DNA of 55,500 bases, from assembly GCA_963575745.1 (NCBI GenBank), contig CAUYUJ010000153.1, forward strand, positions 62,001 through 117,500, written 5' to 3'. Under the pieces are notes generated by a model. It searched no databases, had not been told where the DNA came from, and worked only from the letters and a program-made list of their open reading frames with translations. The stretch comes from Prorocentrum cordatum (lineage: Eukaryota). This document shows positions 1 through 5,708 of the stretch, in pieces (position 1 is the first letter of the stretch; each line of letters begins with the position of its first letter). The position numbers were made by a program, and so were the translations under genes.

Positions 1-973
1 TGATTCTCTCCAGCTCGTTCTCCAGCTCAGTGCCGCCAACTATGCCAGCGACCGCGGACGCAAGTGCCTCTCCCAGGGCAACAACATTCACAGGCAGCGC
101 TGCCCCTTCGGCCCCTTCGGCCCCAGCTGATGGCAACTCGTCGCCAGCGATTTCAAATAACCACGAATCTGGATCGAGTTCAAAGCGATCACCTGCGCTG
201 AAGGCACCGACAGCAGTAGTGCGCCGTCGGCGAACAAGTGCAGGTGGCTCTGGGGTCAATGTGACAACGTCTGATACTGGAACACCCGACGACCATCCAA
301 GCTGCGGCATCCAGTCGTCTGCATCAATGGGACGGGGCGCATGCCAAATTATTTCAACGATCATATAATCTAATGAGCCCGTCTCCAGAACACCAGCCCG
401 ATACCGCGCAAACATTTCCAGCGTGGACAAGATATGCAATGGCAACACATGCGAAATAAACCCATCATCATCCGCGCGCGCCATGACCATTGTACCCACA
501 CTATGTGCCTTGTCAGCGCATATATAAAGCATGTTGCCTGCAGTATACTCTCCAAAACAGATGGCTTCAGACATGTGTGGTGAGCCACGTGAACGCTGAG
601 CTTGGTTCCACAATACACTCCAAGGGGTCGCCCACGCTAGCTCTTCAACACTAAGATCATGATCAGGCGGCTTGAACGGAAGCAACTCAGAAACATCAGA
701 TGAAGATGGCAGCTGTCCTGGAAGCGGCAGCGGCGGGGGTGACCAGCGGAGTTGCTCGAACCCTATATCATCTGCACCGTCTACGTTCAGAAGACACCGA
801 TCAAACACAACCTTGACATCATCACATATTGCAGACCATTTCGTCATGTGCACCGGCGGCAGCTGCGATTTCAGCTGCACCCGACTGCTCAGGAGCTCCA
901 GCGAGATGGACGGCGCCCTGTTGCCCTGGATCTTGATCAGGGAGTTCGCGGACTCGACCGGCCGGCTGCTCGC
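1..973 (-). CDS. Last visible exon of the hAT-like transposase (ASSRPVESANSLIK...GTELENELERI), 324 codons with no stop
   Basis: Translated by hand. It starts after the acceptor ggcag| at 974 and stays open to position 1. It is absent from the ORF track, presumably because no stop falls inside the window. Confidence 0.85.
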
Positions 974-3900: not shown

Positions 3901-5708
3901 TGTCGTGGGCACTTCTGTCCAGAGTGGAACGCCGAGGGACTGCAACTGTTTCAGCGTCAAAGCGAACGCACCATCACGCGTTCCCGTCTCAACTGGCAAA
4001 ATATCGGCTAGATGTGATCGCGAAGCAAAAGCCTCCGCGTGACAAAGGTTTCCAGAAATAAGGTTCACGCGCCACTTATTATCGCTCGACGCCGCCACTG
4101 CTGTCTGCGCGAACAAACTGTGAAGTTTCCTCTGGGCAGAAAAAAACACTCTACCCGCTCTTCTTCTTATCAATCTGATCAGGGCCCCACGAGAGGAAGT
4201 TCAAAGAGGAGCGATTGGGGAAAGGGGGGCGGAGCGGGGAAGGAGGCGATGATGATATTGAGGAGGGGAGAAGAGTGAGGCAGGAGGGAGGAGGGGGGGA
4301 AGAGGAGGACGCGGTGGAGGAGGAGGAGGAGGAGGAGAGGGAGGAGGAGGGGGGGTGATCACGGTGATCACTGACCACCGCGTGCATATTACTTTGGAGA
4401 CCCCCCATTGGTCCTCCTCTGCCACACGGCCGAGTTGGTCGCGTCCGCCATCCAGGATATACAGGCCAGTGCCAGGCGACCAGGTTCTGACGCAGTTCTG
4501 GAGTTCAGGGATCCCCACGCAGCCCTAATCAGGTTATGGAACGTGCGACTGCTGGCAACCAAAGCTGACCCCGCGAACACTTCCGCCCTGCCAATTGTTT
4601 GTTGCGAAATATCAAAACACATGATCATTCCAACATGTATTTGCGCTATGTTCGCGAGGTTGCGGCGTGTACCGAGAGCCAGCTTACCTTGTTGAGTCAA
4701 TTGTTTGGCCCCCCTCTTCTGGATATCAAGGTATGAGCTCCGACGCCGAAACTCAGCCAGATCCCGGTTTGCATGTTTCAGTTTCTTCCTGACCTCCACC
4801 AGTGCGTCAGATTTGCGGCGCGCCCGCTGCGTCAACAGAACGTTCCTGGAGAATGATGAGACGGAGAAGCGGGGGGCAGGGCTCCGTGTACACGTCGGTC
4901 GCGGCAGGCAACGCGACGTAGGAAGACAAGCCTTGATAACAGCTTGGCGTCGCCACCTTCAAAGCGAGGAGCTGATCCTCGTTGCTTGAAGTAGGACGGC
5001 GTTTGACATATATCGGGGCCTGGGGAATCCAGAAACCACATGCTTTAAACGACCGACAAGTACACTCACATCATTCACCTTGTCCCCCGCTTCCACATCT
5101 CATCATTCAAAAGGGTCCTGCGTTTCAGCCCGGCGATCTGCACGGCGTGGCCCGCGTCGGGCTGACGCGCCTGCATCGCGAAGCGACTGTATGTGTTGTT
5201 CCATCCACCACCACCTCCACTCTCAACCTCGTTCTCATCCTCCCATCCACCACCTTCCTCCTTGGTTTCCCTGACAACGCGCCTGGGCTGGGACGAGTTG
5301 GCCAGCGTCAGCCTGTCCAGCTGGCACGACCGCGCCGCCCGAGGGAACAATCGGAACAATCTGATGTTGATGGTGGTGCTGCTGGTTGCGCTGGCAAACT
5401 GCTGCGGCCGTCGCACAAACGCGTGTCCAGTCAGGGCCCGACACGTGACAACCAGCATCACTGAGAACAACTAGCACCACATCAGGGTCGAGGAGCCCAA
5501 GATCCCCACTGCGCTCCATCAGCCACTGGCGATGCCCAGCGATCGCTTCAGTAATTCGCCGCCTGAGAGCACCATCGCGACCCGACACGGTCGATGCGAA
5601 CTGCTGCGATGCCACGCCATCCAGCCGCAATCGAAAGCCGACGCCGTCGATCCACACGCCAGCGCCGACCAGCGCAACGCGCAAAGGCTGCCGTCCGACG
5701 GCGGCCAT
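1..5708 (-). CDS. Spliced hAT-like DDE transposase, 7 exons: complement(join(<1..973,1743..1823,2205..2349,2899..4129,4414..4845,5118..5170,5283..5708)); >1100 aa, one frameshift near 3655, 3' end runs off the window
   Basis: Manual splicing keeps the frame across six introns (GC-AG 5171-5282, GA-AG 4846-5117, GA-AG ~4130-4413, GT-AG 2350-2898, GA-AG 1824-2204, GC-AG 974-1742). Motifs in hAT order: WMADATNS (D, ~4444), VTDAGSD (D, ~3851), RCLEHQYHL (CxxH), AGRWGS (RW), ASSRPVESANS (E, ~954). Donor of intron 3 is ambiguous by 3 nt. Confidence 0.8.
1303..1716. repeat. (GA)n microsatellite (~1303-1545) plus poly(A) (1605-1716), inside intron 6 of the hAT-like gene
   Basis: Directly visible; lies between the GC donor at 1742 and the AG acceptor at 974. 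Confidence 0.95.
2709..2729 (+). other. Dinoflagellate spliced-leader-like relic inside hAT intron 4 (antisense to the gene)
   Basis: CGGTAGCCATTTTGGGTCATG versus CCGTAGCCATTTTGGCTCAAG, 18/21 identical. Confidence 0.65.
2899..4129 (-). CDS. Core exon of the hAT-like transposase (TDAGSD, CLEH, GRWGS), with one frameshift near 3655
   Basis: Overlapping ORFs 3616..4173 and 2895..3650. The exon is one base longer than the splice phases require, consistent with a single indel. Confidence 0.8.

What the first reader, a model, noticed from the sequence alone, without database searches (positions are those of the whole stretch)
1..5708. Hidden, nearly intact, six-intron hAT-like transposase with long N- and C-terminal extensions
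Seen: seven minus-strand exons splice in frame into >1100 aa with a single indel near 3655, and five of six donors are GA or GC. Established: D...TD...CxxH...RW...E in this order is the hAT transposase signature. Inference: next to neighbours full of stops this gene is well preserved, so it is either a young element of a divergent intron-rich hAT lineage or a domesticated gene. More than 300 aa follow the catalytic E, which is unusually long for hAT.
Basis: partly seen in the sequence, partly recalled or inferred. Interest (0 to 1): 0.75.

Follow-up and report, generated by a model that had tools for sequence, protein, structure and literature searches.

The report
Split hAT-like transposase gene, dinoflagellate
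This stretch holds a real, intron-split gene for a cut-and-paste transposase that folds like the housefly Hermes (hAT) enzyme, belongs to a very large protein family of marine dinoflagellates that no domain library names, and is broken in this copy by a two-base gap.

Summary
On the minus strand, five exons (about 4880 to 1) join through four introns into 992 residues with no stop. They match a profile of 150 relatives as one unbroken domain (675 bits, E 2e-206). The only defect is a frameshift at 3653/3654. A near-identical contig from a public run has two extra bases there, which restore the frame. The 5' part (ATG 5708, one or two more exons) is only weakly supported, and its junctions cannot be fixed. 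GA and GC donors are normal for this host: the closest protein is from Prorocentrum cordatum, where about 75% of donors are GC or GA.

The family is large (3125 clusters at 50% identity) and matches no Pfam family. Its predicted structure matches Hermes (hAT) far better than any other solved transposase (Z 16.9, next 7.4). D, D, CxxH, RW and E are almost invariant. At least 317 residues follow the catalytic E. They include a confidently folded alpha+beta domain with no clear structural match.

One intron sits at the same site and phase in relatives about 30% identical. Element ends, mobility and expression were not shown, so a transposon gene and a domesticated gene both remain possible. This scan has noted Hermes-like transposases elsewhere in this genome.

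The parts
5238..5708 (-). Tentative exon 1: candidate ATG at 5708-5706, with the frame open down to the stop at 5237-5235. The real donor lies somewhere inside and is not resolved.
   Evidence: One search shows the ORF. One search gives a profile hit at 5630..5367 with E 3e-4. One search gives 28% identity to P0001 residues 198-308, E 0.032. One search shows codon-position GC typical of coding sequence from about 5738 to 5350. could not fix the junctions.
4414..4880 (-). Exon 2, minimal extent. The acceptor is unresolved and lies between about 4866 and 4958. The exon holds a coiled-coil stretch, the conserved GxLALGxRRNL..TV.R.E module and the first catalytic Asp (ADATNS 4448-4431, D codon 4445-4443).
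   Evidence: Profile hit 4880..4413, E 4e-30. D is present in 100 of 102 non-gap family rows.
4130..4413 (-). Intron, 284 nt, GAG|GACCAA ... CCAGAG|G (GA donor). A GA donor 3 nt upstream is also possible but fits the homologs' W-x3-K spacing less well.
   Evidence: The profile runs on without gap across the joint (positions 292/291).
2899..4129 (-). Exon 3, 1231 nt. It holds the second catalytic Asp (VTDAGSDQ 3858-3835), CxxH (CLEHQYH 3765-3745), GRWGS (3545-3531), a second GRW (3272-3255) and the helical insertion domain.
   Evidence: Profile hits 4134..3655 (2e-41) and 3659..2898 (5e-61). 38-43% identity to P0001.
3653..3654 (-). Frameshift. The window lacks two bases here compared with relatives.
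   Evidence: The frame changes between TLCNI and SNVWREL. Contig 2981-3863 of run X1 has 2 extra bases after 3653, which restore a codon and give I-T-N as in P0001.
2350..2898 (-). Intron, 549 nt, ACG|GTAGAT ... CGCCAG|G (GT donor, phase 2). The in-frame TAG at 2897-2895 is the first thing read if the intron is not spliced out.
   Evidence: The same site and phase are broken in metagenome loci L001 and L003, and probably L002. P0001 ends exactly here.
2205..2349 (-). Exon 4, 145 nt (WPFRIFY...KLKRLFSE).
   Evidence: Profile hit 2360..2202, E 4e-15. Hits to 7 family members at E 5e-8 to 9e-6.
1824..2204 (-). Intron, 381 nt, GAG|GACGCG ... CCCCAG|G (GA donor).
1743..1823 (-). Exon 5, 81 nt (EIASAAQDGQCPSRLWTVVHQIGRDLK).
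   Evidence: On its own the hit is weak (E 0.029). It fills profile positions 735-763 exactly in the joined model.
974..1742 (-). Intron, 769 nt, AAG|GCATCC ... CGGCAG|G (GC donor). It is filled with a ~110-nt A/T homopolymer (1605-1716) and GA/CT microsatellites (about 1262-1680).
1..973 (-). Exon 6, still open at the window edge, so the gene continues beyond base 1. It holds the catalytic Glu (PVESANS 961-941, E codon 955-953) followed by NSLIK..RAPSISLELLSSR.
   Evidence: Profile hit 976..320, E 2e-27. E is invariant in 30 of 30 rows of A4 and present in 69 of 70 non-gap rows of A2.
239..661 (-). Family-specific C-terminal alpha+beta domain inside exon 6 (exon-6 residues about 105-245).
   Evidence: AlphaFold2 of window:2-973 with 29 relatives gives block pLDDT 86-95 over residues 110-210. 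There is no clear structural match: Foldseek best E 0.024 and VIA-align best Z 4.5 for this part.

Best explanation
The stretch is one copy of an intron-containing gene for a DDE cut-and-paste transposase of the Hermes (hAT) structural type. It belongs to a very large, uncatalogued family of dinoflagellates. The gene is most likely the transposase gene of a DNA transposon, or a recent relic of one.

Shown:
- The gene model: five exons and four introns, plus a weakly supported 5' part.
- Family membership.
- A predicted RNase H-like core split by a large helical insertion domain, as in Hermes.
- All catalytic and signature residues are present in this copy: D in exon 2; D, CxxH and RW in exon 3; E in exon 6.
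- A two-base gap breaks the frame at 3653/3654, while a near-identical sibling sequence is unbroken there.

Inferred by analogy with Hermes:
- The three acidic residues bind two metal ions.
- The enzyme cuts the element ends, forms a hairpin on flanking DNA with help of the RW tryptophan, and integrates with a short target duplication.
- The conserved module ahead of the core replaces the BED finger in DNA binding.
- The extra C-terminal alpha+beta domain, and the PHD-type finger of longer relatives, tether or regulate the enzyme.

As read, this copy cannot make the full protein, unless the gap is an assembly error.
For: Gene and family:
- The joined model has no stop and gives one profile domain, 674.9 bits, E 2e-206.
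- The closest protein is P0001 from Prorocentrum cordatum, at 38-43% identity.
- The family has 3125 cluster representatives at E<=1e-3 and 356 at E<=1e-30.

Fold and residues:
- Ten of the 11 Foldseek matches with E<=1e-3 are listed, and all ten are Hermes chains.
- VIA-align gives Hermes Z 16.9, against 7.4 or less for IS256, P element, RAG1 and integrases. Integrase cores align across model 284..817, so the helix carrying E packs back onto the core.
- D1 lies at the end of strand 282-293, D2 just after strand 376-385, and E in helix 750-765.
- Conservation among non-gap rows: D1 100/102, D2 125/127, C 132/133, H 129/131, R 133/137, W 132/138, E 69/70.

Signs of a mobile or multi-copy origin:
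- Run X1 gave 30 laid contig pieces at 90-100% identity (8 at >=99%, 11 at 95-99%, 11 at 90-95%). One restores the frame at 3653. Another has its own 14-nt deletion at 4706.
- The nearest paralog carries an N-terminal OTU protease domain.

Host: GC donors and AG|G acceptors also occur in related metagenome loci, and these match published dinoflagellate splice statistics.
Against: - No terminal inverted repeats or target duplication could be looked for. The 3' end lies outside the window and no whole genome was held.
- Only one copy is in the window.
- No sequence method ties the family to hAT. Pfam gave nothing at its cut-offs for the window frames, P0001-3, 44 long members or 30 members at E<=10. 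Profiles of 3 and 150 members found no PDB chain at E<=10.
- No BED finger was found.
- The full-length fold was predicted for a relative (P0016), not for the window's own protein. It is a prediction, not an experiment.
- Language-model look-alikes with hAT-type Pfam families scored only 0.81-0.83, below the tool's reliable range.
- Of 36 exonic differences from run X1, 17 are synonymous. One intron is conserved in site and phase at about 30% identity. Both fit a host gene family as well as they fit a DNA transposon.
Confidence: 0.65

Rival explanations
1. It is a member of a domesticated, host-owned gene family derived from a Hermes-like transposase. The family would be kept for a cellular DNA-cutting or DNA-binding task, and this copy would be a recent pseudogene or an assembly casualty.
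For: - The intron after profile position 686 is at the same site and phase in L001 and L003 (and probably L002), which are only 29-35% identical to the window protein.
- 17 of 36 exonic differences from X1 contigs are synonymous, more than neutral decay should give.
- Catalytic residues are kept across 150 representatives.
- The paralog P0001 is part of a deposited gene set.
- Members occur as uninterrupted 1000-2000 aa frames on 3.5-13 kb contigs that look like transcripts.
Against: - DNA transposons also carry their introns along, and their active lineages also evolve under selection, so none of the above is specific.
- 3125 clusters at 50% identity is very large for a host family.
- This copy has a frameshift and a sibling has a 14-nt deletion.
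- Fusion to OTU is recalled, not tested here, as something transposon-encoded proteins often show.
- Earlier notes of this scan report inverted-repeat-bounded elements with Hermes-like transposases in the same genome. I did not check them.
Confidence: 0.2
2. It belongs to another CxxH-bearing DDE superfamily without a solved structure (such as Kolobok), or to a Mutator-like lineage, and merely shares the general architecture with Hermes.
For: - No hAT Pfam model, no hAT dimerisation domain and no BED finger were detected.
- From memory, the motif around E (E-x2-N-x3-K ... P) looks like the Mutator/IS256 motif. This was not tested.
- An earlier scan note (e1-7695589) reports a Hermes-shaped transposase of an unnamed family with a 4-bp rather than 8-bp target duplication. 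I did not check it.
Against: - Hermes stands far above the IS256, P element and RAG1 structures: Z 16.9 against 7.4, 7.1 and 6.9. It aligns from ahead of the core through the insertion domain to the C-terminal helices.
- The RW motif after CxxH is kept in 132-133 of 137-138 rows.
Confidence: 0.1
3. It is not a gene: chance open frames in GC-rich DNA.
For: GC-rich DNA gives many long frames. None of 116 other long frames of the window matched Pfam.
Against: Six colinear profile hits with E down to 5e-61, and a joined model at E 2e-206 with no stop.
Confidence: 0.01

Closest known systems
Hermes transposase of the housefly and the hAT superfamily (Ac, hobo, Tol2, Buster)
   Same: - Predicted RNase H-like DDE core interrupted by a large all-helical insertion domain, with C-terminal helices that carry the catalytic E.
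- Same order of D, D, CxxH, RW and E.
- Best structural match: Z 16.9, rmsd 3.9, 393 of 476 residues, Hermes 136-609.
   Different: - No sequence-level match to any hAT Pfam model or to Hermes.
- No BED zinc finger. Instead there is a coiled coil and a conserved GxLALGxRRN module ahead of the core.
- At least 317 residues follow E, where the aligned Hermes chain ends about 50 residues after it. They include an alpha+beta domain with no clear structural match.
- Sub-threshold PHD-type fingers occur at the C-terminus of 4 of 30 members, and an OTU protease in the nearest paralog.
- Ends and target duplication are unknown.
Hermes-like transposase genes noted earlier by this scan in the same genome (e1-7628739, e1-7625166, e1-7625510, e1-7629502 and others)
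   Same: As described in those notes: multi-exon genes for large Hermes-fold transposases from a big unnamed family of marine protists.
   Different: - A word-based sequence look-up with this window's exon 3 found no look-alike among earlier windows, so this is a diverged branch.
- Those notes mention HMG-box and Cys/His tails, which I did not find here within the window.
- I did not see their sequences.
ISCth4 (IS256 family), P element transposase, RAG1/Transib
   Same: DDE core with an insertion between the second D and E. All appear among the structural matches.
   Different: Much weaker matches: Z 7.4, 7.1 and 6.9, with rmsd 6.0-6.6.

Membership tests
hAT superfamily | RNase H-like DDE catalytic core split by a large helical insertion domain, as in Hermes | tested here: met
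   Model of family member P0016: pLDDT 79.9, pTM 0.76. Foldseek to Hermes: E 2.6e-6. VIA-align: Z 16.9 over model 218-805. The test used a relative about 25-30% identical to the window protein, not the window protein itself.
hAT superfamily | Signature residues in order: D, (T/S)D, CxxH, RW, E | tested here: met
All are present in the window copy and nearly invariant in 150 family representatives.
hAT superfamily | Sequence match to the hAT C-terminal dimerisation domain (Pfam PF05699) or other hAT core models | tested here: not met
   - 0 of 44 long members and 0 of the window frames match at Pfam thresholds.
- With 30 members at E<=10, no hAT-type family is among the 25 of 38 families shown.
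- Profile searches of PDB sequences found no hit at E<=10.
hAT superfamily | N-terminal BED-type zinc finger for DNA binding | tested here: not met
   No BED or other zinc-finger Pfam match in P0001-3 or in 44 long members. The window's own N-terminus is only tentatively modelled.
hAT superfamily | Short terminal inverted repeats and 8-bp target site duplication | not testable with these tools
   The gene runs off the window at base 1, no whole genome is held, and only one copy is in the window.
hAT superfamily | Excision through a hairpin on flanking DNA | not testable with these tools
   Needs biochemistry.
Mutator / IS256 | Closest structural similarity to an IS256-type core | tested here: inconclusive
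   ISCth4 scores Z 7.4 against 16.9 for Hermes. No eukaryotic MULE structure appeared among the listed structural matches. Pfam MULE and Transposase_mut models did not match.
Dinoflagellate nuclear gene (host assignment) | GC/GA donors beside GT, and AG|G acceptors | tested here: met
   Donors are GA, GT, GA and GC, and 4 of 4 acceptors are AG|G. The published P. cordatum figures are GT 24.7, GC 51.4, GA 23.8 and AGG 79.7 % (PMC10666404, passage read). The best protein hit is named Prorocentrum cordatum.

The most novel reading that the evidence does not exclude
The family is not a branch of hAT but a separate, dinoflagellate-centred superfamily of Hermes-fold transposases. It would have its own DNA-binding module, its own C-terminal alpha+beta domain and PHD-type finger, and ancient introns. 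Part of it may have been taken over by the host for programmed DNA cutting in the unusual, nucleosome-poor dinoflagellate chromosomes.
Probability: 0.2. Interest if true: 0.65.

Novelty: new variant of a known kind. Interest (0 to 1): 0.5.

Why it matters
Dinoflagellate genomes are huge and repeat-rich, and their DNA transposons are barely catalogued. My three literature searches found no description of a dinoflagellate hAT-like family. A family of more than 3000 protein clusters that standard domain libraries miss is left unannotated, or is annotated as ordinary genes, in every such genome. Recognising it as a Hermes-fold transposase helps to mask and annotate these genomes. It also gives a candidate engine for their gene duplication and rearrangement, and offers a distant relative for studying how the hAT/Hermes architecture varies. 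This single locus adds an exact exon map, a conserved intron, and a new C-terminal domain with no clear structural match.

Tried and rejected
- Whole-genome search for copies: no genome is held for this window.
- RNA evidence: no RNA holder was listed for window 1-5800. All four runs laid were DNA-type contigs and showed no joints. Splicing is therefore supported by homology only.
- Sequence-level links to known families:
  - Pfam on 6 window frames gave only chance-level rows, the best being DDE_Tnp_1_6 at E 0.095.
  - Pfam found nothing for the transposase part of P0001, P0002 or P0003.
  - Pfam on 44 long members gave only sub-threshold PHD/C1 and coiled-coil rows.
  - Pfam on 30 members at E<=10 gave nothing of the hAT type.
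  - Profiles of 3 and of 150 members against PDB sequences gave 0 hits at E<=10.
- Word-based protein search at near length with exon 3 gave no hit, although HMMER found relatives of that length. The blank is a limit of the method.
- ESM Atlas: the top clusters are unnamed eukaryotic proteins (0.90-0.92). hAT-type clusters score only 0.81-0.83, so they are leads only.
- C-terminal domain: Foldseek best E 0.024 (SSB, probability 0.13). VIA-align best Z 6.6, on the helical part only, and 4.5 or less for the alpha+beta part. No assignment was made.
- 5' exon junctions: 254 candidates could not be separated by profile score. An earlier, unrestricted enumeration timed out.
- Inverted repeats at intron ends (introner signature): only low-complexity matches.
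- OTU exon upstream: tblastn with P0001 found nothing for its residues 1-197 in the window below E 2.
- Relatives in viral contigs: 40 pattern matches, none confirmed.
- My first impression that the E motif points to Mutator/IS256 rather than hAT was set aside after the structural comparison.
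Full report
**What the window is.** The window is eukaryotic, with about 60% G+C and many microsatellites. No whole genome is held for it. The best protein match to the minus-strand frames of 1-5708 is an 'unnamed protein product, partial' of Prorocentrum cordatum (P0001, 945 aa, E 3.4e-41, 38-43% identity). The splice signals found below fit a dinoflagellate.

**The observation.**
- Stop-to-stop frames on the minus strand lie at 2..1123 (open at the window edge), 2895..3713, 3616..4200, 4389..4958 and 5235..5753.
- Two distant relatives came from the word-based search (P0002, P0003).
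- A profile of these three against 1.84 billion cluster representatives found 3125 proteins at E<=1e-3, 1636 at E<=1e-10 and 356 at E<=1e-30.
- A profile of the best 150 hits the window's minus strand in strict colinear order:
  - 4880..4413: profile 119-292, E 4e-30
  - 4134..3655: profile 291-453, E 2e-41
  - 3659..2898: profile 453-686, E 5e-61
  - 2360..2202: profile 683-735, E 4e-15
  - 1823..1740: profile 735-763, E 0.029
  - 976..320: profile 762-922, E 2e-27
- Nothing else in the 55.5-kb window matches.
- The profile positions abut at every break, so the junctions can be placed to the base:
  - intron 4413..4130: GAG|GA...AG|G
  - intron 2898..2350: ACG|GT...AG|G
  - intron 2204..1824: GAG|GA...AG|G
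  - intron 1742..974: AAG|GC...AG|G
- Joined this way, with X at the frameshift, the reading gives 992 residues without a stop. It forms a single profile domain of 674.9 bits, E 2e-206.

**The frameshift.**
- Frame A follows the homolog through ...TLCNI, and frame B follows it from SNVWREL....
- I laid public contigs on 1720-5800. One contig of run X1 (2981-3863, 12 substitutions) carries two extra bases after 3653. They restore a codon and give I-T-N, as in P0001.
- No X1 contig shows the window's shorter version there, but that contig is not the same allele as the window. The choice between a real frameshift and an assembly error stays open.
- Another X1 contig (4577-4882) has its own 14-nt deletion at 4706, inside exon 2.
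- In all, 30 X1 pieces were laid at 90-100% identity (8 at >=99%, 11 at 95-99%, 11 at 90-95%). Only 14 of 37 pieces from all runs are shown in the output. This suggests several copies or alleles.
- Of 38 listed X1 differences, 36 fall in my exons. 17 are synonymous and 19 are not. Four of them rest on the tentative exon 1 frame, and 14 further differences were not listed by the tool.

**The 5' end.**
- The ATG at 5708-5706 opens a frame with coding-like codon-position G+C down to about 5350.
- Homology there is weak: E 3e-4 to the three-sequence profile, and E 0.032 with 28% identity to P0001 residues 198-308.
- I required G|G[T/C/A] donors and AG|G acceptors, as in the four secure introns. 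That leaves 6 two-exon and 248 three-exon joins to exon 2 that are frame-consistent and stop-free. Their profile scores differ by only a few bits.
- So 'seven exons, six introns, five of six donors GA or GC' cannot be checked. The secure count is five exons and four introns, with donors GA, GT, GA and GC.
- These donors are not unusual. The P. cordatum genome paper gives GT 24.7%, GC 51.4%, GA 23.8% and 79.7% AGG acceptors (PMC10666404; I read passages including Table 2).

**What the protein is.**
- No sequence method names it.
  - Pfam gives nothing for the window frames and only the OTU domain at the N-terminus of P0001.
  - Pfam gives nothing for P0002 or P0003.
  - Of the 150 listed proteins, I scanned the first 44 (in id order) of at least 750 aa that fitted the call's residue cap. 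No Pfam family reached its cut-off. Sub-threshold PHD/C1 fingers appear at four C-termini.
  - With 30 members at E<=10, no hAT-type family is among the 25 of 38 families shown.
  - Profiles of 3 and of 150 members find no PDB sequence at E<=10.
- Structure gives an answer.
  - AlphaFold2 of member P0016 (914 aa), with 132 of the 150 relatives (those up to 1120 aa, to fit the size limit), gave mean pLDDT 79.9 and pTM 0.76, with the core 140-850 mostly above 90.
  - Foldseek against the PDB gave 11 matches at E<=1e-3. The ten listed are all Hermes chains, the best at 2.6e-6. The next distinct transposase is the P element at E 0.026.
  - VIA-align gave Hermes Z 16.9 (rmsd 3.9, 393 residues, model 218-805 to Hermes 136-609).
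  - The next families are ISCth4 at 7.4, P element at 7.1, RAG1 at 6.9 and retroviral integrase cores at 6.8 or less. The integrase cores span model 284..817.
- In the model, the first Asp ends strand 282-293, the second Asp follows strand 376-385, CxxH starts helix 416-437, and the Glu lies in helix 750-765. This is the RNase H-fold arrangement.
- Among the 150 representatives, counting non-gap rows:
  - D1: 100/102
  - D2: 125/127
  - C: 132/133
  - H: 129/131
  - R: 133/137
  - W: 132/138
  - E: 69/70
- The window copy has all of them: ADATNS 4448-4431, VTDAGSDQ 3858-3835, CLEHQYH 3765-3745, GRWGS 3545-3531 and PVESANS 961-941.

**The long tail.**
- The catalytic E is residue 7 of exon 6, and 317 residues follow before the window ends with the frame still open.
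- This tail is conserved. It matches P0031 (E 5e-14) and P0009 (E 3e-12), and profile positions 762-922.
- I folded window:2-973 with 29 relatives (mean pLDDT 73.7). The model shows the E helix and three or four further helices, then an alpha+beta domain at residues about 105-245 with block pLDDT 86-95 over 110-210.
- Foldseek (best E 0.024) and the Foldseek-independent search of 48,161 chains (best Z 6.6 on the helices, 4.5 or less on the alpha+beta part) give no convincing match.
- Longer relatives go on for several hundred residues and often end in a Cys/His cluster with sub-threshold PHD-type matches (4 of 30 members).

**Relatives in genomic DNA.**
- A scan of metagenome contigs found 9 loci, and all are split into pieces.
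- Three of them (L001, L002, L003; 29-35% identical to the window's exon 3) break at profile position 686, exactly where the window's GT intron lies.
- In L001 and L003 the break has the same phase (two bases of the codon before the intron) and a GC donor. In L003 the next exon begins AG|G and reads RYPFRLFW, against RWPFRIFY in the window. L002 is probably the same.
- P0001, a partial model, ends at this same residue.
- Five loci (L004, L005, L007, L008, L009) read through position 686. L004 and L005 are one sequence from two samples. L006 ends near position 686 at its contig end.
- The intron is therefore old within a sub-branch of the family.
- The scan of viral contigs found no relative.

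**Interpretation.**
- This is a real gene of a Hermes-fold DDE transposase family. The fold, the signature residues and the family size make a transposase origin secure.
- Whether this lineage is still a mobile element is not shown. The ends lie outside the window, no genome could be searched, and no RNA run was available.
- Several facts fit a transposon: copies with independent frame-breaking indels, a very large and diverse family, and an OTU fusion in the nearest paralog.
- Other facts fit a host gene family equally well: the conserved intron, the excess of synonymous change and the kept active site. A DNA transposon also keeps its introns and also evolves under selection.
- I put 0.65 on a transposon gene or recent relic, 0.2 on a domesticated family, and 0.1 on another CxxH superfamily that only resembles hAT.

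**Earlier notes of this scan.** The scan has already described Hermes-like transposases of a large unnamed family on other pieces of this genome. These include elements said to have inverted repeats with 8-bp (e1-7628739) or 4-bp (e1-7695589) duplications. I did not see or test those sequences. A word look-up with this window's exon 3 found no close copy among earlier windows.

**Literature.** Three full-text searches found no description of a dinoflagellate hAT-like family:
- 'Prorocentrum cordatum' + 'transposable elements' + 'genome'
- 'dinoflagellate' + 'hAT' + 'DNA transposon' + 'transposase'
- 'Symbiodinium' + 'hAT' + 'transposase'

I read only listings for these searches, plus passages of PMC10666404 and PMC11453091. 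Supplements were not opened and could hold repeat tables that name hAT elements.

Noticed in passing
window 6600-7180 (-) and 8120-8790 (+): Two head-to-head open frames encode Gly/Tyr/Asp/Lys-rich repeats of the type GYYDGGKGSD. They show up as long imperfect inverted repeats, for example 6923-6965 against 8495-8537 at 98% complementarity. No Pfam match.
   Followed up: no
window 9289-9440: Four copies of a 27-nt perfect-stem palindrome (a GTCGTATATGAG stem, a 3-nt loop, then the stem's reverse complement) lie within 150 bases. None is expected by chance (0 of 100 shuffles). They occur nowhere else in the window.
   Followed up: partly
window 1262-1716: The intron between exons 5 and 6 holds a ~110-nt A homopolymer (plus strand) and about 400 nt of GA/CT microsatellite. 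These blocked read mapping.
   Followed up: no
window 14486-16348 (+) and 25562-27217 (-): Long open frames of 621 and 552 aa lie in the two stretches of the window with the lowest G+C (about 52%), where chance frames are less likely. Neither matches Pfam at E<=1e-3.
   Followed up: no
P0001 residues 24-111: The closest annotated paralog carries an OTU cysteine-protease domain ahead of the transposase part (E 3e-12). No OTU exon was found in this window.
   Followed up: partly
L004 and L005 (metagenome contigs): Two contigs from different records carry the same family gene with identical profile hits. A further conserved block lies about 2.4 kb downstream (profile 959-1180), so some relatives have very long introns or a second conserved C-terminal region.
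   Followed up: no
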